Shown here piece by piece: positions 1-36,513 of a stretch of 37,428 nucleotides of DNA. A model generated the notes under the pieces. That model was given only the letters and a program-made list of their open reading frames with translations. It ran no database searches and was not told where the DNA came from. Each line of letters begins with the position of its first letter. The first letter of the stretch is position 1. Origin of the DNA: a virus. Its lineage: Duplodnaviria > Heunggongvirae > Uroviricota > Caudoviricetes. Location: positions 1 to 37,428 of the IMG/VR virus record IMGVR_UViG_2651869749_000010; one strand, 5' to 3'. A program made the translations under genes and the position numbers.

Positions 1-1002
1 TTACCCTCTATTGTCAAAAGGGTTCAATTCAACAGCAGCCTCTAAATGACCTGGAGCAAAATGCGCATAACGCATAGTCATTTTTATATCGCTATGCCCC
101 AGTATTTTTTGCAACACAAGAATATTTCCGCCCCGCATCATAAAATGACTGGCAAACGTGTGACGTAGCACATGAGTTAATTGCCCATCAGGAAGCTCGA
201 TCTTCGCTCTCTTAATTGCAGCGTCAAAAGCCTCATAACATGGTGAAAATAGCGCTCCTCGTTTTTTAGGAAGCATAGCCTGCAATTGAGGTGAAATCGG
301 TACAGTGCGGTTCTTCTTTCCTTTAGTTTTAACAAATGTGATTCGACCGGGCAGTACTTGAGATTGCTTTAATCCTTCTGCTTCACTCCACCGAGCACCC
401 GTCGCAAGCCCAATACGGACAACAACCCCCAAATCTTTATTCCGTGACTCATCACACGCAATCAGAAGGCGTTCAATCTCATCTACATACAGAAACGCCA
501 GTTCCTTTTCTTCCTCACGAAACTTGCGAATACCAGTCAGGGGGTTTTCACCAGACCACTCCCCAAGGCGCTTCAGTTCGGCAAAAACAGCATGTAGATA
601 TGACTGCTCGCGATTAACGGTTGCTTCACTAAGTTTTTTCTTCCCCTTGGGATTCCATTCTCCTGATAGCCTTCTTTCCCGATAAGTAGCAAACATATTT
701 TTGTCAAACTGAGAAGCAAATGGATCTCCCAGCCTGGAACAAATCGCCTCAAGTTTGACTTTGCGCTCTGCACCAGAGGACAAGGTTTTACCGTACATCT
801 CAAACCAACGAGCAATCAACTCAGAAAGACGAGGACCAGAACCATCTTGAAACTCGTCTCCAACTCTACTATTCATTAAACGGCGCTCATAAGAGAGCGC
901 CTCACTTTTTGTCGCAAACTGTTTACGAATGCGTTTTCCCGATGCCCCGTAGGGATAACATTCGCAAAGCCATTTACCTGATGGAATCTTACGAACCGAC
1001 AT
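1..1002 (-). CDS. int: P2-type tyrosine integrase; stop codon sits at the window edge
   Basis: 333-aa ORF with C-terminal motifs typical of P2 Int (RTVPIS, HVLRHTFASHFM, LQKILGH, MRYAHFAP); position at one prophage end next to the repressor. Confidence 0.9.
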   Translation of the reverse strand: MSVRKIPSGKWLCECYPYGASGKRIRKQFATKSEALSYERRLMNSRVGDEFQDGSGPRLSELIARWFEMYGKTLSSGAERKVKLEAICSRLGDPFASQFDKNMFATYRERRLSGEWNPKGKKKLSEATVNREQSYLHAVFAELKRLGEWSGENPLTGIRKFREEEKELAFLYVDEIERLLIACDESRNKDLGVVVRIGLATGARWSEAEGLKQSQVLPGRITFVKTKGKKNRTVPISPQLQAMLPKKRGALFSPCYEAFDAAIKRAKIELPDGQLTHVLRHTFASHFMMRGGNILVLQKILGHSDIKMTMRYAHFAPGHLEAAVELNPFDNRG

Positions 1003-8330: not shown

Positions 8331-8822
8331 ATGCAAATTTCACCGGTTACTCTTCGTGTTGCGAAGGCGTTTATATCCAGACATCACCGACACAATAAAC
8401 CCCCGGTGGGGCATAAATTCAGCATTGGTCTGAGAAATGATGCCGGAGAATTGATAGGTGTGGCGACAGCCGGTAGACCTGTTGCACGACATTTGGACGA
8501 TGGATTAACGCTTGAAGTAAATCGCACATGTACCACAGGAGAACGCAACGCTAACAGCGCACTTTATGGTGCTGTCTGGCGGGCAGCAAAGGCTATGGGT
8601 TATCAACGTTGTATTACGTACACCCAGGCAGATGAATCAGGAGCATCTCTCCGCGCAGCTGGTTTTGTTCGTGTGAAAGAGCTTCCTCCAAGAAAAAGCT
8701 GGGCGGAATCAAGCGTCGCCCTGCGGAGTAAACGCGATCCGGTCGGAAACGGTGGTGTTCCTCGTGTGCTCTGGGAAATCAGGAGAATGAGTACCACTGG
8801 CATTCGCATCAAAGGAGAGTGA
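8331..8822 (+). CDS. Hypothetical basic protein (163 aa), first gene of accessory operon; possible degenerate GNAT-like fold
   Basis: ATG 8331 with AGGAGAGTGA RBS/junction; segment ALYGAVWRAAKAMGYQRCITYTQADESGASLRAAGF is loosely reminiscent of acetyltransferase-fold proteins but lacks a clear G-x-G loop. Confidence 0.55.
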   Translation: MQISPVTLRVAKAFISRHHRHNKPPVGHKFSIGLRNDAGELIGVATAGRPVARHLDDGLTLEVNRTCTTGERNANSALYGAVWRAAKAMGYQRCITYTQADESGASLRAAGFVRVKELPPRKSWAESSVALRSKRDPVGNGGVPRVLWEIRRMSTTGIRIKGE

Positions 8823-9091
8823 TATGGCAACTTTGACAAAAAAAGAACAAGCATGGTTGAGCGAATTACAGGACGTTCTTGATCGCTGCCCATCACCGAA
8901 AAAAATTGGTTTTTACACCATTGGCGATAAAAGCATTTACCTGTATGACCTGCGCCGCATGGATGAAATCATGGAGGCTCTTGATAATCGTTCGTCAATG
9001 GATTGGTGTGTTGCTGTCCATGATATGAATGCAGGGTTTGATGAAAAGATTTTGTTCCCCTCATCAGTTGAAAGCACAGCAGGATAAGGAC
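8811..9091 (+). repeat. 281-bp direct repeat, copy 1
   Basis: Identity by eye with 9497..9777; starts at AAAGGAGAGTGAT, ends at TAAGGAC. Confidence 0.85.
8824..9087 (+). CDS. Hypothetical small protein (87 aa), copy 1
   Basis: ATG 1 nt after upstream stop; identical second copy at 9510..9773. Confidence 0.6.
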   Translation: MATLTKKEQAWLSELQDVLDRCPSPKKIGFYTIGDKSIYLYDLRRMDEIMEALDNRSSMDWCVAVHDMNAGFDEKILFPSSVESTAG

Positions 9092-9097
9092 TAACAC

Positions 9098-9508
9098 ATG
9101 ACCACTATTACCAAAGAACGTATTGAATTGTTCATTAAAAATCCGCTTGAAAACGGGCTTACTCGTGACGAACAAATGGAACTGGCACGAATTGCACTGG
9201 CATCGCTGGAAGCAGAGGCAGTTATGTTCTGTATATCAGGACAAAATGTAGATTCAGAAGAACATGTATCAACCAGCAAAGCGGTTGTTGATGCCTGGGT
9301 TGAAGAATGGAATCAGGTTGACGGAAGTCCTGGCGAACCACTGTACAAAACTATGCCACTCTACTATCACGCTGCCTTGCCAGCGCCGGTAGTGCCGGAT
9401 GAAATGTATTGGCAGGATGCGCCAGTTGAAGGCAGCAGCAAAGCGGCTGCATACGCTACAGGCTGGAACGCCTGCCGCGCCGCTATGCTTCATGGGAAAG
9501 GAGAGTGA
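9098..9508 (+). CDS. Hypothetical protein (136 aa) bracketed by the duplicated 87-aa gene
   Basis: 136-aa ORF; stop followed 1 nt later by ATG of duplicate gene; no recognised domain. Confidence 0.55.
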   Translation: MTTITKERIELFIKNPLENGLTRDEQMELARIALASLEAEAVMFCISGQNVDSEEHVSTSKAVVDAWVEEWNQVDGSPGEPLYKTMPLYYHAALPAPVVPDEMYWQDAPVEGSSKAAAYATGWNACRAAMLHGKGE

Positions 9509-9777
9509 TATGGCAACTTTGACAAAAAAAGAACAAGCATGGTTGAGCGAATTACAGGACGTTCTTGATCGCTGCCCATCACCGAAAAAAATTGGTTTTT
9601 ACACCATTGGCGATAAAAGCATTTACCTGTATGACCTGCGCCGCATGGATGAAATCATGGAGGCTCTTGATAATCGTTCGTCAATGGATTGGTGTGTTGC
9701 TGTCCATGATATGAATGCAGGGTTTGATGAAAAGATTTTGTTCCCCTCATCAGTTGAAAGCACAGCAGGATAAGGAC
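9497..9777 (+). repeat. 281-bp direct repeat, copy 2
   Basis: Identity by eye with 8811..9091. Confidence 0.85.
9510..9773 (+). CDS. Hypothetical small protein (87 aa), copy 2 (identical to 8824..9087)
   Basis: ORF-track frame 9399..9773 contains the identical 87-aa sequence from ATG 9510; the N-terminal extension is the overlap with the upstream gene. Confidence 0.6.
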   Translation: MATLTKKEQAWLSELQDVLDRCPSPKKIGFYTIGDKSIYLYDLRRMDEIMEALDNRSSMDWCVAVHDMNAGFDEKILFPSSVESTAG

Positions 9778-26249: not shown

Positions 26250-26761
26250 TAAACTGCCCTCACAATGTAATTAAGTGCAATGCTACGGGGTCTGACAGTG
26301 ATACCCTTCGCATACCCGCTTCTGATAGAGGTCAGAATAGTAGCCTGCATACCATTGTCTGACATTGCCACGACAGGATCGCTGAATGTTGTCCCGTCCG
26401 GCATTTTAAAGCTGCCCTCACGAAGGTCTGTAATGGAATCTTCATTGTTGAATCCCATGCCGACTATCCCCGAGGTTCCCGTAGTGTCCTGGTTATAATA
26501 ATCCAGCATTGCTGTTCTTAACAGCGTTGCCCCTTGTGCGGACAGCAACTTACGTCCTGTATCAACTTTGCGCCCGTCGTCCCATCCACGGATAAACTCA
26601 CCGCGTAAATCGGGAAGACGGAGGGTCGGGTAGGCTCTGGCCAGAACAGGATATTGTTCTTTTGTAAAGGCGCGCCCGTCGCACTTTAACCAGCCTTCTG
26701 GCGGTGTGGCGGTGGGCCACGGAACCGGTACACCAACAGGCAATGCAGAGCCTTCCCCCAA
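26249..26761 (-). CDS. Silent alternative tail-fibre C-terminal cassette 1 (promoterless; expressed only after inversion)
   Basis: Begins with GEGSALPVGVPVPWPTATPPEGW shared with H and ends NYIVRAV; inverted orientation. Confidence 0.7.
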   Translation of the reverse strand: MGEGSALPVGVPVPWPTATPPEGWLKCDGRAFTKEQYPVLARAYPTLRLPDLRGEFIRGWDDGRKVDTGRKLLSAQGATLLRTAMLDYYNQDTTGTSGIVGMGFNNEDSITDLREGSFKMPDGTTFSDPVVAMSDNGMQATILTSIRSGYAKGITVRPRSIALNYIVRAV

Positions 26762-26780
26762 ACCAACGTTTTTATGCCGC
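26750..26780 (-). other. Invertase crossover site 2
   Basis: CCCCCAAACCAACGTTTTTAT; AAACCAA-GTTTTT resembles hix/gix half-site consensus from memory. Confidence 0.5.
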
Positions 26781-27245
26781 CCTTACGATATAATTAAAGG
26801 CAATATTACGAGGACGGTTTTCATTAGCTGTTGGCACGACACGAGAGGCGTCGAATCCAAGGTCATCGGTTTTGTCTATAGTAGTTGTGTTATTCGGCAT
26901 TCTCGCTGATCGTGTTCCTGCATCGTAAAAAGCCCCTCTGATTGCATCAAAAGACATACCGATCCCGCCATCTGCGAATCCCTCAATATTTCTTATTGCA
27001 TCCCCCTGTGAAGATAATAATTGTCGCCCGGCATCCACACCACGTCCGTCATCCCAGCCACGAATAAATTCACCGCGTAAATCGGGAAGACGGAGGGTCG
27101 GGTAGGCTCTGGCCAGAACAGGATATTGTTCTTTTGTAAAGGCGCGCCCGTCGCACTTTAACCAGCCTTCTGGCGGTGTGGCGGTGGGCCACGGAACCGG
27201 TACACCAACAGGCAATGCAGAGCCTTCCCCCAAACCAACGTTTTC
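26772..27245 (-). CDS. Silent alternative tail-fibre C-terminal cassette 2
   Basis: Shares LGEGSALPVG...RGEFIRGWDDGR and C-terminal RPRNIAFNYIVRAA; ORF-track start upstream of the crossover site is artefactual. Confidence 0.65.
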   Translation of the reverse strand, partial: ENVGLGEGSALPVGVPVPWPTATPPEGWLKCDGRAFTKEQYPVLARAYPTLRLPDLRGEFIRGWDDGRGVDAGRQLLSSQGDAIRNIEGFADGGIGMSFDAIRGAFYDAGTRSARMPNNTTTIDKTDDLGFDASRVVPTANENRPRNIAFNYIVRAA

Positions 27246-33516: not shown

Positions 33517-33673
33517 AGCTTTAGCCCCTTGTATCCGTTAAATGATTCGGCAACAATCATCACCCACCACGCGCGTAATCTCACCCCTGTGCCGTTCTCC
33601 CGATCCGGCGACAACAAAAAGCAGTAACCCCCTCCGCACGCACATGCGACCATGCCGCACAGGGAGGGAACAG

Positions 33674-34783
33674 ATGACCGATACCACCATGCAATTGCTC
33701 AGTCAGGGCACAGACCCCGTGAAAATGCCGGATTTTGATATTCTCGCGGAGGGTAAAACGCTGTCAGGCGTGGCAGAGCGCCTGATGAGCCTGTCACTGA
33801 CCGACAACCGGGGATTTGACGCGGACCAGCTCACCATCACGCTGGATGATGCGGATTGTCAGTTGCAGCTACCGCCACGGGGCGCGCGCCTGACGGTTCT
33901 CATTGGCTGGAAAGGAGAACCGCTGACAGAAAAAGGCACTTACATTGTTGATGAAATCGCTCACGAAGGACCGCCGGACAGGCTGACTGTTTCAGCCAGA
34001 AGCGCAGATTTTCGGGATGAATTTAACGTTAAACGTGAGGTGTCCTGGCATGATGTGACCGTTGAGCGTGTGGTATCCGCCATCGCTCATCGGTATGGTC
34101 TGAAACCGCAAATCAGCGAAATGCTGATGGATATCGAAATCGACCACGCCGACCAGACCGAAGAAAGCGACATGTCCTTCCTTACGCGCATGGCGGAAAT
34201 GCTGGGCGCAATCACCACGGTAAAAAGCGGTAATCTGTTATTCATTATGCCAGGCGGTGGCGTGAACGCACAGGGCCAGCCGTTGCCATCGTTCGCCATC
34301 ACGCGCAGCAGTGGCGATCGCCATCAGTTCCGCATTGCTGACCGCGAAGCGTATACGGGGGTACGCGCTTACTGGCTTGATCTTAATTACGGGAAAAAGA
34401 AAAAAGTCAGCGTGAAACACCGCAAACCGCCAAAACCCAAAAAGGAGAAAAGCAGCAGCCGTGAAGGTGATTATATGGAAGGCGCGGAAGGCAATGTGTT
34501 TGTGTTACGCAAGACTTATCAGAACGAGCAGGCAGCAAGACGCGCAGCGGCGGCAAAGTGGCAGCAGCTACAACGCGGAGCCGCATCATTCTCCATCACG
34601 CTGGCATGTGGTCGTGCAGAACTCTACCCCGAAATGCATGGCACGGTAACAGGATTTAAAAGCGAGATTGATAATCAGGACTGGATTATTGCAAAAGCCG
34701 AGCACACCATCGATAACAGCGGCTTTACCACGCAGCTTGAGCTTGAGGCAAAAATCTCGGAATGGATAGCAGAAACAGAGTGA
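33674..34783 (+). CDS. D: Tail protein D (phage late control D family)
   Basis: Frame 33542..34783, ATG 33674 with GGAGGGAA RBS; size and position immediately before ogr. Confidence 0.75.
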   Translation: MTDTTMQLLSQGTDPVKMPDFDILAEGKTLSGVAERLMSLSLTDNRGFDADQLTITLDDADCQLQLPPRGARLTVLIGWKGEPLTEKGTYIVDEIAHEGPPDRLTVSARSADFRDEFNVKREVSWHDVTVERVVSAIAHRYGLKPQISEMLMDIEIDHADQTEESDMSFLTRMAEMLGAITTVKSGNLLFIMPGGGVNAQGQPLPSFAITRSSGDRHQFRIADREAYTGVRAYWLDLNYGKKKKVSVKHRKPPKPKKEKSSSREGDYMEGAEGNVFVLRKTYQNEQAARRAAAAKWQQLQRGAASFSITLACGRAELYPEMHGTVTGFKSEIDNQDWIIAKAEHTIDNSGFTTQLELEAKISEWIAETE

Positions 34784-34825: not shown

Positions 34826-35086
34826 ATGTTCCGTTGTCCGCTTTGTGGCGCATCTGCCCGTATCCGCACCAGTCGTCCGGAAAATGATTCAAACACCGTG
34901 CGGCAAAAGTATTACCAGTGTAACAACCTGGAATGCGGCGTATGCTTCTCAACACTGGAAGCTTTCCATAAATTCACATCAAAACACACCTCCGGCGTTC
35001 ACTCTTCAGAAGGTATCCCGTGGCATGAGCTGCCAGCTTCACACAGGGGAAACAATCAGATGAGTTTGCCTTTACCTCAGAATTAA
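34826..35086 (+). CDS. ogr: Ogr/Delta-type zinc-finger late transcription activator
   Basis: MFRCPLCGASARIRTSR...YYQCNNLECGVCF parallels P2 Ogr MFHCPLC...RTSR...YHQCQNVNC. Confidence 0.85.
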   Translation: MFRCPLCGASARIRTSRPENDSNTVRQKYYQCNNLECGVCFSTLEAFHKFTSKHTSGVHSSEGIPWHELPASHRGNNQMSLPLPQN

Positions 35087-35277
35087 CAGGCAGAATTGCC
35101 GGAGTAACAAAAAAGCGATAGATTACGCGCGGGTGCCTTTCGGCTGATGGTCGGAGGGAATACCCGAAGGCCAGATGTGGAAAGGCCCCGGAAAACATTT
35201 CTGTTTAACCGAGGCCCTAACATATCTACCTTAAGCAAGTGATAGGTTAGCGCCTCTCCAACAAAGGAGCAAGCGCT

Positions 35278-35418
35278 ATGTCGCAAAAATCGCTTACGGC
35301 CATCACATTCTGCGTGACGGTAATCCTCATCATCTGGATGCTACACGGTTCGCTGTGTGAAATACGGATGAGCTTCTGGGGAGCGGAGTTTGCGGCGTTC
35401 TTACAGTGTAAGCAGTAA
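35278..35418 (+). CDS. Hok/Gef-family type I toxin (46 aa)
   Basis: MSQKSLTAITFCVTVILIIWMLHGSLCEIRMSFWGAEFAAFLQCKQ: N-terminal TM helix plus SLCEIR and E.AAF blocks shared with Hok (SLCEIR...EVAAF); AGGAG RBS 8 nt upstream; not in ORF track (below size cutoff). Confidence 0.7.
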   Translation: MSQKSLTAITFCVTVILIIWMLHGSLCEIRMSFWGAEFAAFLQCKQ

Positions 35419-35506
35419 GGAAACCGCGACGGGGGAGCAATCCCCCGTCAATCGGTTGCTAAGGTTGGCTGAAGTGGCACCCTATCTCACAGACATGAAC
35501 AACAAA

Positions 35507-35538
35507 CCCGCAGCGTAAGAACTGCGGGTTTTCTTTTT
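35507..35538 (+). terminator. Rho-independent terminator downstream of the hok-like gene
   Basis: CCCGCAG-cgtaagaa-CTGCGGG followed by TTTTCTTTTT. Confidence 0.6.
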
Positions 35539-35606: not shown

Positions 35607-35888
35607 TTACTCAGCATTCTCCTGCTTCCATTGCCGGATCATTTCATCGGTAACATCACCCTCATAACATACCACGTCATACCCTCCATTACGGCTATAT
35701 GCACTGCGTCCACCACATCTACTACCATTCCTTGCATGATTATAAGGACACGCACAATTGCCTGGATAAGATTCAATGGATTCTTTAATTATTTCTTTTT
35801 TGATCTGAGCATCAGACTTTCCTGTTGCTGCATATCCGCTAAAAGATACTAAACAAAGGCAGATTGCCATTAATAAACCACATCGCAT
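35607..35888 (-). CDS. Small secreted cysteine-rich protein (hypothetical)
   Basis: Frame 35607..36002; start placed at ATG 35888 giving signal-peptide-like N-terminus MRCGLLMAICLCLVSFSGYAA; 6 Cys in mature part. Confidence 0.5.
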   Translation of the reverse strand: MRCGLLMAICLCLVSFSGYAATGKSDAQIKKEIIKESIESYPGNCACPYNHARNGSRCGGRSAYSRNGGYDVVCYEGDVTDEMIRQWKQENAE

Positions 35889-36119
35889 ACCGATACACTC
35901 TATTACTAACCAATCATAGCCCACATCATAAAATCGAGATGAGGAGTACAATACCTTTAACAAGAAGGTGTCATAACGATAATATGTCGTGCAATTCATC
36001 AAAAAAAAGATCTATATCAAAGAGATAGAACTCTTATCAGTGCTTCAGACATCGGCATTCGAGGCAGCAGAAAAACAGTAAATCTGACGAATTTGCCTTT
36101 TCCCAAGATGTTGTCAGAT

Positions 36120-36300
36120 TAAAAAGATAGATTAGCGCAGGTACCTGTTGGTGGATTGCAGGAGGAAAAATGAAGTCGAGTGGAAAAATCCCAGAAAAAT
36201 TTTTGTTTAACAGAGGTCCTGGTTCACTATGCGAAATACGGAGGAGCTGCAGAAGAATTCTGCTTCATCCTTAGAGTTTAAACAGCACGTGCACTACCAT
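36120..36300 (+). pseudogene. Degenerate hok-like locus remnant (leader homology retained, toxin N-terminus/TM missing)
   Basis: ~75% identity by eye to the 35108-35215 leader and to the hok 3' part (cgaaatacgg...), but ~140 bp including start codon and TM region absent. Confidence 0.4.
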
Positions 36301-36351: not shown

Positions 36352-36383
36352 ACAAATACAAAAAAACCACCCGAAGGTGGTTT
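36352..36383 (-). terminator. Rho-independent terminator of the tRNA operon
   Basis: Minus-strand hairpin ACCACC-ttcg-GGTGGT followed by U-run. Confidence 0.6.
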
Positions 36384-36426
36384 CACGACACTGCTTATTG
36401 CTTTGATTTTATTCTTATCTTTCCCA

Positions 36427-36513
36427 TGGTACCCGGAGCGGGACTTGAACCCGCACAGCGCGAACGCCGAGGGATTTTAAATCCCTTGTGTCTACCGATT
36501 CCACCATCCGGGC
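36427..36513 (-). tRNA. leuZ: tRNA-Leu (anticodon UAA)
   Basis: 87-nt reverse complement matches recalled E. coli leuZ tRNA including CCA end and anticodon loop. Confidence 0.85.

What the first reader, a model, noticed from the sequence alone, without database searches (positions are those of the whole stretch)
35108..35538. Hok/Gef-family type I toxin locus at the prophage right end
A 46-aa ORF with an N-terminal TM helix and the SLCEIR/E.AAF signature of Hok-family toxins has a strong RBS, a structured ~170-nt leader and a downstream intrinsic terminator. Hok loci are regulated by an antisense RNA and mRNA folding, so an antisense transcript across the leader/start is expected. A type I toxin beside ogr would be a post-segregational or stress-killing module.
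Basis: partly seen in the sequence, partly recalled or inferred. Interest (0 to 1): 0.55.

Follow-up and report, generated by a model that had tools for sequence, protein, structure and literature searches.

The report
Known-type Hok/Sok toxin locus in prophage
This is a genuine but already catalogued hok/sok-type toxin-antitoxin locus carried as cargo near the right end of a P2-like prophage; its one unusual trait is that it, and its whole 46-residue subfamily, lack the conserved 'mok' leader reading frame that the textbook hok/sok system needs to translate the toxin.

Summary
The ORF at 35278-35418 encodes a 46-aa Hok/Gef protein (Pfam above threshold). RefSeq annotates the identical protein in E. 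coli. The locus occurs in 1545 of 5426 complete E. coli genomes, in P2-like phage P88, and next to lom in Stx2 phages. The exact peptide is listed in a 2026 Hok catalogue (cluster 72); a one-residue variant was among 45 homologs tested, and it is not one of the 3 named non-toxic.

The RNA anatomy matches hok/sok:
- A 5' end (tac) pairs with a 3' fbi element, with compensatory changes across 37 loci.
- The hok Shine-Dalgarno sits in a -14 kcal/mol hairpin.
- A 3' hairpin and a terminator are present.
- On the minus strand, a promoter plus terminator hairpin resembles K-12 sokB/sokC/sokE. This predicts a roughly 60-nt Sok RNA (35236 to ~35175).

It differs from the R1 paradigm in four ways:
- No conserved mok reading frame.
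- Rfam's model scores below threshold.
- It is not a HokA equivalog.
- The predicted Sok does not reach the hok start.

The locus lies about 820 bp inside the element's right boundary, followed by a decayed second hok copy. Expression and biological role are untested. Interest is low.

The parts
35096..35124 (+). Predicted hok promoter: -35 TTGCCG (35096-35101), 17-nt spacer, -10 TAGATT (35119-35124)
   Evidence: Read. The -10 (TAGATT/TAGAAT) is kept across the subfamily alignment. It sits 7 nt before position 1 of the Rfam leader model. It matches the consensus at only 8 of 12 positions and was not called by the consensus scan.
35131..35537 (+). Predicted full-length hok mRNA (about 407 nt)
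   Evidence: Position 1 of Rfam RF01794 aligns to 35131. In the R1-like control the same model position falls on GGCGCTTGAGG, which from my own recollection is the start of the R1 hok mRNA. Folding gives z = -6.99. The 3' end is set by the terminator.
35131..35145 (+). tac-like 5' element: pairs with fbi in the full-length RNA and with 35149-35165 once the 3' end is removed
   Evidence: MFE folds. Pair counts show 5 pairs with compensatory changes and about 90% of cells paired. RNAalifold predicts the same helix independently.
35149..35165 (+). ucb-like partner of tac in the 3'-truncated RNA
   Evidence: Truncated folds. 88% of cells paired, mostly one-sided changes. Weaker support than tac/fbi.
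35175..35236 (-). Predicted Sok antisense RNA (about 57-62 nt): 5' tail GCUUAAGGUAGAUAUGUUAG, then a terminator hairpin (reverse complement of 35184-35216) and a UUUCC tail
   Evidence: Aligns with annotated K-12 sokB, sokC and sokE in promoter spacing, +1 G and the GGCCUCGG...CCGGGGCC hairpin. The RNA alone folds at -22.9 kcal/mol. The 3' end is inferred by analogy. No expression data.
35244..35272 (-). Predicted Sok promoter: -35 TTGCTC (35272-35267), 17-nt spacer, -10 TAACCT (35249-35244)
   Evidence: Across 55 distinct subfamily sequences the -10 is TAACCT (52) or TATCCT (3) and the -35 is TTGCTC (46), TTTACT (7) or TTGCCT (2) at 17-nt spacing. The R1-like locus has TTGCGC-17-TATCCT at the homologous place. 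Mean column identity of the -10 is 0.99. Not called by the consensus scan.
35211..35256 (+). Possible Sok-target hairpin (GAGGC/GCCUC and CUAAC/GUUAG stems around a variable loop), homologous to the R1 helix that encloses the mok start
   Evidence: The Rfam model structure line has this helix. 86% of cells are paired but there is essentially no compensatory change (1 pair), so covariation neither supports nor refutes it. It is not in the MFE. The R1 mok AUG aligns by eye with AUA at 35223-35225.
35248..35278 (+). hok Shine-Dalgarno hairpin: anti-SD CUCC (35256-59) pairs with GGAG (35266-69); stem UAGCGC/GCGCUA reaches the A of the AUG
   Evidence: The local hairpin is -14.2 kcal/mol, against -13.8 for the R1-like equivalent. 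It is present in full-length, truncated and Sok-blocked folds. 99.5% and 84.5% of cells are paired, with wobble changes only. RNAalifold also predicts it.
35278..35418 (+). hok coding sequence, 46 aa
   Evidence: Pfam HOK_GEF; PHROG 251; identical RefSeq protein WP_000078920.1; dN/dS 0.15-0.36 against 11 diverged copies; no internal stops in 16 distinct peptides.
35422..35457 (+). 3' UTR hairpin (35428-36 with 35441-49) flanked by AACCG/CGGUU; likely stabiliser of the 3'-processed mRNA
   Evidence: 99.7% of cells paired and 5 pairs with compensatory changes. RNAalifold agrees.
35467..35482 (+). fbi-like 3' element complementary to the mRNA 5' end
   Evidence: Homology among subfamily loci ends a few bases after it.
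35504..35537 (+). Intrinsic terminator (10-bp stem, T-run)
   Evidence: Terminator scan. 7 pairs show compensatory changes, but this part is replaced by other sequence in several loci.

Best explanation
The locus is a hok/sok-type type I toxin-antitoxin module carried as cargo ('moron') between ogr and the right junction of a P2-like (Peduoviridae, P88-like) prophage. The plus strand makes a stable, tightly folded mRNA of about 407 nt (35131-35537). In it the 5' end (tac) is locked to a 3' element (fbi), and the Shine-Dalgarno of the 46-aa membrane toxin Hok is buried in a local hairpin of -14 kcal/mol. The minus strand makes a short antisense RNA, Sok (35236 to about 35175), from a promoter that overlaps the hok Shine-Dalgarno-to-AUG region. 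By analogy with plasmid R1, slow 3' trimming removes fbi and the 5' end refolds onto 35149-35165. The leader then becomes available either to ribosomes or to Sok, and Sok pairing leads to RNase III cleavage and silencing. When Sok supply stops, Hok would be made and would damage the inner membrane. Sok supply could stop through loss of the element, transcription shut-off or prophage induction. What is shown here: family membership of the protein, purifying selection on it, the 5'-3' pairing with covariation, the Shine-Dalgarno hairpin, and resemblance of the antisense promoter and terminator to annotated sok genes. What is inferred: transcription start sites, 3' processing, RNase III involvement, toxicity of this exact peptide, and the biological role. 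The step that cannot be copied from R1 is translational activation, because no conserved mok frame reads into the hok Shine-Dalgarno. Hok translation must either start directly at a rarely open hairpin or depend on something not yet identified.
For: Protein: Pfam HOK_GEF 30.1 bits against a cut-off of 22. PHROG 251 at E 2.5e-23. M1, L26, C27, E28, E37 and A39 are invariant in an alignment with HokA, HokC and R1 Hok, and C12 and T14 align with the Cys and Thr of those three proteins, though one 46-aa subfamily member in the alignment (Salmonella L101) has F and V there. RefSeq names the identical protein 'Hok/Gef family protein'. The exact peptide is id 1628 in File_S1 of bioRxiv 10.1101/2025.08.07.668861. 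Cluster-72 representatives 72_1621 (V16A relative to the window) and 72_1589 were among 45 homologs tested, and the only three named as non-toxic are others. dN/dS is 0.15-0.36.

RNA: Rfam RF01794 matches 35131-35288 on the plus strand at E 5e-9. Folding z = -6.99 with 5'-3' pairing. The tac/fbi helix has 5 compensatory pairs and RNAalifold predicts it independently. The 3' hairpin has 5 compensatory pairs. The Shine-Dalgarno hairpin is -14.2 kcal/mol, like R1's -13.8.

Sok: promoter hexamers and 17-nt spacing are kept in all 55 distinct sequences. The +1 and terminator hairpin align with annotated sokB, sokC and sokE.

Distribution: 1545 of 5426 E. coli genomes; phage P88 at 98.9% identity and Stx2 phages at 84%; the same D-ogr-hok order in Salmonella P2-like prophages.
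Against: No transcript, toxicity or antitoxin data exist for this exact locus. The Rfam hit is below the gathering score (47.9 against 59), whereas hokC, hokB, R1-like and hokE controls score 84-118. Both predicted promoters are weak consensus matches and were not called by the scan. No mok frame is present: 34 of 55 distinct sequences have no ORF reading into the hok Shine-Dalgarno, and the rest use unrelated starts. The Shine-Dalgarno stays paired in every thermodynamic state modelled, including the 3'-truncated form, so how Hok is ever translated is unexplained. According to the preprint's summary of earlier work, chromosomal hokA, hokB and hokC loci did not mediate post-segregational killing. 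The conserved Sok -10 and -35 positions overlap mRNA structure and the Shine-Dalgarno region, so their conservation is not independent evidence for a promoter.
Confidence: 0.82

Rival explanations
1. The locus is canonical after all. One of the short leader ORFs of the E. coli-type sequences acts as a mok equivalent: 35175-35234 (19 codons, preceded by GAAGG) or 35147-35242 (31 codons). Ribosomes terminating just upstream would open the hok Shine-Dalgarno hairpin.
For: In the truncated fold, tac pairs with 35149-35165 and frees 35166-35172 next to the AUG at 35175, which resembles the R1 logic of exposing the mok Shine-Dalgarno. In some variants the 35147-type ORF ends at the anti-SD or reads through hok: 10 of 55 sequences have an ORF from an ATG at -130.
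Against: Neither AUG exists in the Salmonella, Klebsiella or Citrobacter members (GGCTGATGG becomes GACTTTCCGG or GACGCTGG; AGATGTGG becomes AGAAAAGCG). The variable loop changes length by 1-2 nt, so the frame and stop position shift between close relatives. The window's ORFs stop 22-30 nt before the Shine-Dalgarno. The 35147 AUG has no Shine-Dalgarno and sits in the tac hairpin loop. The predicted Sok does not cover either start.
Confidence: 0.15
2. The locus is a silent or decaying relic. The toxin gene is intact but is never translated from its native leader, so the module has no present function.
For: No mok. The Shine-Dalgarno sits in a -14 kcal/mol hairpin in all modelled states. Chromosomal hok loci are reported as inactive in post-segregational killing. 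A clearly decayed second copy lies 600 bp downstream.
Against: Purifying selection on Hok (dN/dS 0.15-0.36) and no nonsense alleles among 16 peptides. Compensatory changes maintain tac/fbi and the 3' hairpin. Non-coding parts are as conserved as the coding sequence. The locus is kept in phage genomes such as P88 and the Stx2 phages. The R1 hok Shine-Dalgarno hairpin is just as stable.
Confidence: 0.12
3. This concerns the biological role. The module is mainly a phage lysis and release helper switched on during prophage induction, as shown for hokW-sokW of Sp5. It would not mainly be a post-segregational or stress-killing device.
For: In Sp5, sokW RNA disappears after mitomycin C, HokW accumulates about 1 h before endolysin R, and deleting the locus halves phage release (PMC8621323). 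The 46-aa hok travels with temperate phages of two unrelated types. hok genes are reported enriched in prophages.
Against: HokW is a different, HokC/HokD-like 51-aa protein (primer-derived ends). No induction data exist for P2-like phages carrying this locus. Nothing in the sequence links the hok or Sok promoters to phage late or SOS control.
Confidence: 0.3

Closest known systems
Hok cluster 72 of Escalera-Maurer et al. (bioRxiv 10.1101/2025.08.07.668861), 46-aa Hok peptides
   Same: The window peptide is listed verbatim as id 1628. Representatives 72_1621 (one substitution, V16A) and 72_1589 (the Stx-phage type) were cloned and are not among the three non-toxic sequences.
   Different: That study analysed coding sequences only. 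It states that Mok, Sok and mRNA ends were not analysed. The RNA anatomy and the lack of mok described here are not in it.
hok/sok of plasmid R1 (the paradigm; PMC9841398)
   Same: tac/fbi 5'-3' pairing, a tac/ucb-like refold on 3' truncation, a buried hok Shine-Dalgarno of similar stability, a 3' stabilising hairpin, and a Sok promoter at the homologous position overlapping the hok Shine-Dalgarno region, with TATCCT/TAACCT as -10.
   Different: Hok is 33% identical and 6 residues shorter. There is no mok: the R1 mok AUG aligns by eye with AUA at 35223-35225, which is followed by UGA six codons later. Rfam scores 47.9 against 87 bits for the R1-like control. The location is a prophage, not a plasmid.
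Chromosomal hokA/sokA, hokB/sokB, hokC/sokC, hokE/sokE of E. coli K-12
   Same: HokA is the nearest named protein (41% identity, shared WM..SLCE...E.AAFL.CK). The predicted Sok shares its terminator hairpin and promoter geometry with annotated SokB, SokC and SokE. The Sok 5' end lies 42 nt upstream of the hok AUG here, against 44-49 nt in K-12.
   Different: The HokA equivalog model scores 35.8 bits against a cut-off of 89. All K-12 controls have an ORF reading through the hok Shine-Dalgarno; this locus does not.
hokW-sokW of Stx2 prophage Sp5 (PMC8621323)
   Same: [quoted passage not shown] Phage annotation pipelines name the window's protein family 'MokW-like host killing'.
   Different: HokW is 51 aa, starts MKQQKAM and ends ...TGQTEVAVFVDYESEK (primers), so it is HokC/HokD-like. 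The Stx2-phage relative of the window locus is a separate 46-aa gene next to lom.

Membership tests
Hok/Gef toxin family (Pfam PF01848) | Match to the family HMM above the curated threshold | tested here: met
   30.1 bits against a cut-off of 22, residues 7-44 on profile positions 5-42 of 42.
Hok/Gef toxin family (Pfam PF01848) | A peptide of about 50 aa with an N-terminal hydrophobic helix and the conserved Cys/Thr in the helix, the LCE motif and a C-terminal Glu | tested here: met
   M1, L26, C27, E28, E37 and A39 are invariant in the alignment with HokA, HokC and R1 Hok. C12 and T14 align with the Cys and Thr of those three proteins, though Salmonella member L101 has F and V there. These correspond to the conserved positions listed.
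Hok/Gef toxin family (Pfam PF01848) | Toxic on expression; targets the inner membrane | not testable with these tools
   Only indirect evidence: variant 72_1621 (V16A) is among 45 tested homologs and is not one of the three named non-toxic.
[quoted passage not shown] | Long-range pairing of the mRNA 5' end (tac) with a 3' element (fbi) | tested here: met
   35131-45 pairs with 35467-82 in the MFE. 5 pairs with compensatory changes. RNAalifold predicts it independently.
[quoted passage not shown] | A cis-encoded antisense Sok gene in the leader, with its own promoter and terminator | tested here: met
   Sequence level only. TTGCTC-17-TAACCT, the +1 G and the GGCCUCGG...CCGGGGCC hairpin align with annotated sokB, sokC and sokE and are kept in 55 of 55 sequences. 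Transcription is not testable here.
[quoted passage not shown] | A mok reading frame that starts in the Sok target and is translated through the hok Shine-Dalgarno | tested here: not met
   No such ORF in the window, P88, the Stx copy or 34 of 55 distinct sequences; the others use unrelated starts. All five controls (R1-like, hokA, hokB, hokC, hokE) have one.
[quoted passage not shown] | hok Shine-Dalgarno sequestered in the mRNA | tested here: met
   Hairpin of -14.2 kcal/mol, 99.5% of cells paired in the lower stem.
[quoted passage not shown] | Slow 3' processing to an active truncated mRNA; RNase III cleavage of the Sok duplex | not testable with these tools
   Only the 3' hairpin that would stop trimming is seen.
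Rfam RF01794 ('sok', which in practice matches the hok leader in the sense orientation) | Score at or above the gathering threshold | tested here: not met
   47.9 bits against 59. Other subfamily members score 38-54; canonical controls score 84-118.
HokA equivalog (NCBIfam NF007290) | Score at or above the curated cut-off | tested here: not met
   35.8 bits against 89.

The most novel reading that the evidence does not exclude
The 46-aa Hok subfamily (cluster 72) is a naturally mok-less branch of hok/sok. It occurs in P2-like and Stx2 phages and in Salmonella, Klebsiella and Citrobacter. In it the antisense RNA would control the toxin without blocking a leader peptide, for example purely through RNase III-dependent decay. 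Alternatively it could act by occluding a ribosome standby or unfolding site about 27-90 nt upstream of a permanently hairpinned Shine-Dalgarno, as described for tisB/istR-1 (from my own knowledge). That would be a second regulatory solution within the best-studied type I family.
Probability: 0.4. Interest if true: 0.4.

Novelty: already known. Interest (0 to 1): 0.2.

Why it matters
As a gene call it adds nothing. The protein is annotated in RefSeq, catalogued in a Hok survey, and a near-identical peptide has been tested for toxicity. Two things may be useful. First, the full RNA anatomy of this subfamily is laid out here: transcript ends, tac/fbi, the Sok gene and the Shine-Dalgarno hairpin. 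It shows that Rfam's curated threshold misses the subfamily. Second, no mok frame is conserved across 55 distinct sequences that otherwise keep every hok/sok element under selection. That is a clean natural test of whether mok-coupled translation is essential to the family. If these loci are active, the R1 model does not generalise. The recurrent position beside ogr in P2-like prophages also offers a simple system for asking what a hok locus does for a temperate phage.

Tried and rejected
- Att repeat: I looked for a direct repeat inside the window to fix the prophage ends and found none. The window starts inside the integrase gene, so attL lies outside it. The right boundary was set instead by comparison with 5426 E. 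coli genomes.
- Promoter scan: the consensus scan called neither the hok nor the Sok promoter. I kept them only because of homology to annotated sok genes and the Rfam model start.
- Sok-target hairpin: my first pair count was mis-registered by one base (helix 4). The corrected count shows conservation but essentially no compensatory change, so it is uninformative.
- Structural switch: I tested whether 3' truncation or blocking of the Sok target changes accessibility of the hok Shine-Dalgarno. It does not; P(unpaired) stays at 0.33-0.39 in all states. A switch that would replace mok is therefore not supported by thermodynamic modelling.
- Long-range helix: a helix between the Sok-target region (35228-43) and the 3' UTR (35451-65) has 5 compensatory pairs but only 82% pairing. 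RNAalifold prefers the local AACCG/CGGUU pairing. I treat it as tentative.
- Equating the locus with hokW of Sp5: rejected, because HokW is a different 51-aa, HokC/D-like protein.
- HokA equivalog: rejected.
The viral-contig scan returned only near-identical proteins, so diversity came from genome contigs and from look-ups of individual protein homologs.
- Literature: a search for hok loci described as lacking mok found nothing relevant in the library.
Full report
**What is there**

The window is a P2-like prophage. It runs from an integrase gene at its left edge (1-1002, minus strand; Int_N and Phage_integrase) to the tail gene D (33542-34783, Phage_GPD) and ogr (34826-35086, Ogr_Delta). It then continues into the tRNA-Leu/Cys/Gly cluster and pgsA.

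Directly after ogr lies the ORF 35278-35418. It encodes MSQKSLTAITFCVTVILIIWMLHGSLCEIRMSFWGAEFAAFLQCKQ.
- It matches Pfam HOK_GEF above the curated threshold (30.1 against 22 bits).
- It matches PHROG 251 'MokW-like host killing' (E 2.5e-23).
- Its best NCBIfam hit is the HokA equivalog, but far below the cut-off (35.8 against 89 bits).
- It is 41% identical to K-12 HokA, 33% to R1 Hok and 24% to HokC. M1, L26, C27, E28, E37 and A39 are invariant across the seven aligned proteins. C12 and T14 align with the Cys and Thr of HokA, HokC and R1 Hok, though one subfamily member (Salmonella L101) has F and V there.

The Shine-Dalgarno AAGGAG (35264-69) and the terminator (35504-31) are also as described.

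**It is already known as a gene**

- The 474-bp locus is present in 1545 of 5426 complete E. coli genomes, and RefSeq annotates it as 'Hok/Gef family protein' (WP_000078920.1).
- It is 98.9% identical to the corresponding region of phage P88 (Peduoviridae, Xuanwuvirus). It is about 84% identical to a 46-aa hok next to lom in many Stx2 phages.
- A homolog search found only 46-aa relatives in E. coli, Shigella, Salmonella and Klebsiella oxytoca.
- The exact peptide is entry 1628 in the sequence file of a 2026 preprint that catalogues Hok diversity. Its 60%-identity cluster is number 72.
- Two cluster-72 representatives were among 45 homologs tested by arabinose induction. One differs from the window peptide only by V16A. 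The three reported as non-toxic are other sequences.

The characterised prophage system hokW-sokW of Sp5 is a different Hok. It is 51 aa and HokC/D-like, judging from the primer-encoded termini.

**RNA anatomy: the hok mRNA**

Rfam's RF01794 model is named 'sok', but in practice it matches the hok leader in the sense orientation, from the mRNA 5' end to the hok AUG.
- It matches 35131-35288 on the plus strand at 47.9 bits (E 5e-9), below its gathering score of 59.
- Positive controls score 118 (hokC), 110 (hokB), 87 (an R1-like IncFII plasmid) and 84 (hokE), always on the hok strand.
- Other members of the 46-aa subfamily score 38-54. The subfamily is therefore a divergent branch that curated thresholds miss.

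Model position 1 places the mRNA 5' end at 35131. This is 7 nt after TAGATT (35119-24), with TTGCCG (35096-101) 17 nt upstream.

The predicted 407-nt transcript folds with z = -6.99. Its first 15 nt pair with 35467-82, which is the tac/fbi lock that defines hok mRNAs (described in PMC9841398).

I built an alignment of 37 loci spanning 71-100% identity. It drew on E. coli phage contigs, E. albertii, Salmonella, K. oxytoca and C. braakii.
- The tac/fbi helix has five pairs with changes on both sides and about 90% of cells paired.
- The 3' UTR hairpin (35428-36 with 35441-49) has five such pairs and 99.7% pairing.
- RNAalifold, which does not start from the window's own fold, predicts both helices.
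- When the 3' end is removed in silico, the 5' end refolds onto 35149-65, as in the R1 tac/ucb switch.
- The hok Shine-Dalgarno is held in a local hairpin of -14.2 kcal/mol, comparable to -13.8 for the R1-like sequence. This hairpin is conserved, with wobble-only changes.

**RNA anatomy: the antisense gene**

On the minus strand, TTGCTC (35272-67), a 17-nt spacer and TAACCT (35249-44) occupy the position of the R1 Sok promoter. The R1-like plasmid has TTGCGC-17-TATCCT there.
- Seven nucleotides downstream is a G (35236).
- A 20-nt tail follows, then the hairpin GGCCUCGGUUAAACAGAAAUGUUUUCCGGGGCC, then UUUCC.
- The annotated K-12 SokB, SokC and SokE RNAs have the same layout and nearly the same hairpin arms.
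- Across 55 distinct subfamily sequences the -10 is TAACCT (52) or TATCCT (3). The -35 is TTGCTC, TTTACT or TTGCCT, always at 17-nt spacing.
- The segment complementary to the Sok 5' tail (35217-36) is less conserved than the Sok hairpin and promoter beside it: column identity 0.78, against 0.92 and 0.99. This fits copy-specific antisense recognition, but it is not proof.

The predicted Sok ends its complementarity 27 nt upstream of the hok Shine-Dalgarno. This geometry is normal for the family.

**The one real departure: no mok**

In R1, Sok blocks translation of mok, and mok translation up to the hok Shine-Dalgarno is mandatory for Hok synthesis (PMC9841398). In the window there is no equivalent.
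- No ATG, GTG or TTG ORF starting upstream reads into the hok Shine-Dalgarno.
- The hok frame is closed by TAG at 35248-50.
- The position that aligns by eye with the R1 mok AUG is AUA (35223-25), followed by UGA six codons later.
- The two leader ORFs (35147-35242 and 35175-35234) stop 22-30 nt short.

The same script finds a read-through ORF in all five controls: R1-like, hokA, hokB, hokC and hokE. In the R1-like plasmid, mok happens to be in frame with hok.

Among 55 distinct subfamily sequences, 34 have no such ORF, and the remainder use seven unrelated start positions. The leader AUGs of the E. coli type are absent from the Salmonella, Klebsiella and Citrobacter members. The variable loop also changes length by one or two bases between close relatives, which is not how a coding region behaves.

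Everything else is under selection. dN/dS for hok is 0.15-0.36, there are no nonsense alleles among the 16 distinct peptides, and codon-position conservation follows 2 > 1 > 3.

The preprint states that Mok was not analysed because it is hard to identify. A phrase search of the library found no description of mok-less hok loci.

I tested whether a structural switch could substitute for mok. I modelled the full-length and truncated RNA, a forced Sok-target hairpin, and blocking of the Sok target. The Shine-Dalgarno stays about equally paired in all of them. How Hok is translated here is therefore unexplained.

**Mechanism and role**

The best-supported reading is a hok/sok module that works like R1 in mRNA locking, 3' activation and antisense silencing, but without the leader-peptide relay. 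These steps are inferred from homology. None is shown for this locus.

Three rivals remain:
- A cryptic leader ORF acts as mok. I consider this unlikely because it is not conserved.
- The locus is a translationally silent relic. Selection and covariation argue against this.
- At the level of role, the module is a lysis-assist function during induction, as shown for hokW-sokW, rather than post-segregational killing.

The D-ogr-hok order recurs in Salmonella P2-like prophages whose Hok is only 61-67% identical and which sit at other chromosomal sites. The association with this phage group is therefore old, which argues for a benefit to the phage.

**Surroundings**

E. coli backbone homology starts at about 36353-36358, roughly 70 nt beyond the 3' end of tRNA-Leu. 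The inserted element therefore extends about 820 bp past the hok terminator.
- This stretch has lower G+C (0.35-0.45 in the windows centred within it, against about 0.50-0.57 in the prophage upstream and about 0.48-0.54 in the chromosomal flank).
- It holds a 93-aa Cys-rich ORF on the minus strand (35607-35888; phrog_27544).
- It also holds a decayed second hok locus (36111-36285). That copy's leader aligns to 35096-35218 and its remainder to 35347-35415. A 128-nt deletion has thus removed the Sok target, the Sok promoter, the Shine-Dalgarno and the first 23 codons.
- Intact tandem pairs of 46-aa hok loci exist in Salmonella.

**Verdict**

The finding is correct and ordinary. It is a member of a known, already catalogued family, so novelty is 'already known' and interest is low. 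The residual interest is the apparent absence of mok throughout the subfamily, which could be settled with a few fusions and Northern blots.

Noticed in passing
window 36111-36285 (+): A decayed second hok locus. It has its own TAGATT -10 and a diverged leader that aligns to 35096-35218, joined directly to sequence that aligns to hok codons 24-46 (35347-35415). A 128-nt deletion has removed the Sok target, Sok promoter, Shine-Dalgarno and N-terminal half. The artefactual ORF 36170-36274 reads ...FLFNRGPGSLCEIRR.
   Followed up: yes
window 36353-36430: All but one of 5426 E. coli genomes match only from about 36353-36358 onward. The inserted element therefore ends about 70 nt 3' of tRNA-Leu(taa), just before a terminator-like hairpin on the minus strand at 36363-36384. 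attL is outside the window, and no att repeat was found inside it.
   Followed up: partly
window 35607-35888 (-): A 93-aa ORF in a low-G+C stretch, with a hydrophobic N-terminus and several Cys (MRCGLLMAICLCLVSFSGYAATGK...). It is RefSeq hypothetical WP_001303543.1 and matches phrog_27544 (unknown function), with weak hits to a 'membrane associated protein' moron family. P88 carries a different gene at this position.
   Followed up: partly
L091 1501-2131; L092 1501-2135: Salmonella contigs carry two intact 46-aa hok loci in tandem, about 490 bp apart, beside a YafO-toxin gene in L092 and L093.
   Followed up: no
L101, L104, L105 (Salmonella): The same gene order (D, ogr, 46-aa hok) occurs at the right end of P2-like prophages with Hok only 61-67% identical. 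L105 is again next to pgsA and has a HicAB pair after hok. L101 is next to ihfA/pheT.
   Followed up: partly
Rfam RF01794 on window 35131-35288 and control loci: The Rfam family named 'sok antitoxin' matches the strand of hok, from the mRNA 5' end to the hok AUG, in every control (hokB, hokC, hokE, R1-like). Its hits therefore mark the hok leader rather than the orientation of Sok. The whole 46-aa subfamily falls below its gathering score.
   Followed up: yes
L110 (IncFII plasmid pMTY1886_IncFII) 440-660: In this R1-like hok/sok locus a 1-nt length difference in the Sok-target loop puts mok in frame with hok (MSDNIRIASYRALRKEKKA-MKLPRS...). The mok frame relative to hok is thus not fixed even among close R1 relatives.
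   Followed up: no
L004, L005, L008: Hok loci encoding peptides identical (L004, L005) or 74% identical (L008) to the window Hok appear in assemblies labelled Planococcaceae bacterium UBA3378, Vagococcus sp. WN89Y and Xanthomonas pisi DSM 18956. These are most likely enterobacterial contamination of those assemblies.
   Followed up: no
window 8811-9091 and 9497-9777; 26530-26772 and 27002-27244: An exact 281-nt direct repeat spaced 686 nt apart, and a 243-nt repeat at 91% identity spaced 472 nt apart, elsewhere in the prophage.
   Followed up: no
L101 1795-1992 (-): A strong Rfam hit to the enterobacterial sRNA STnc540 (171.6 bits) lies about 150 nt downstream of the hok stop codon in a Salmonella locus, next to the HU/IHF-like gene.
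   Followed up: no
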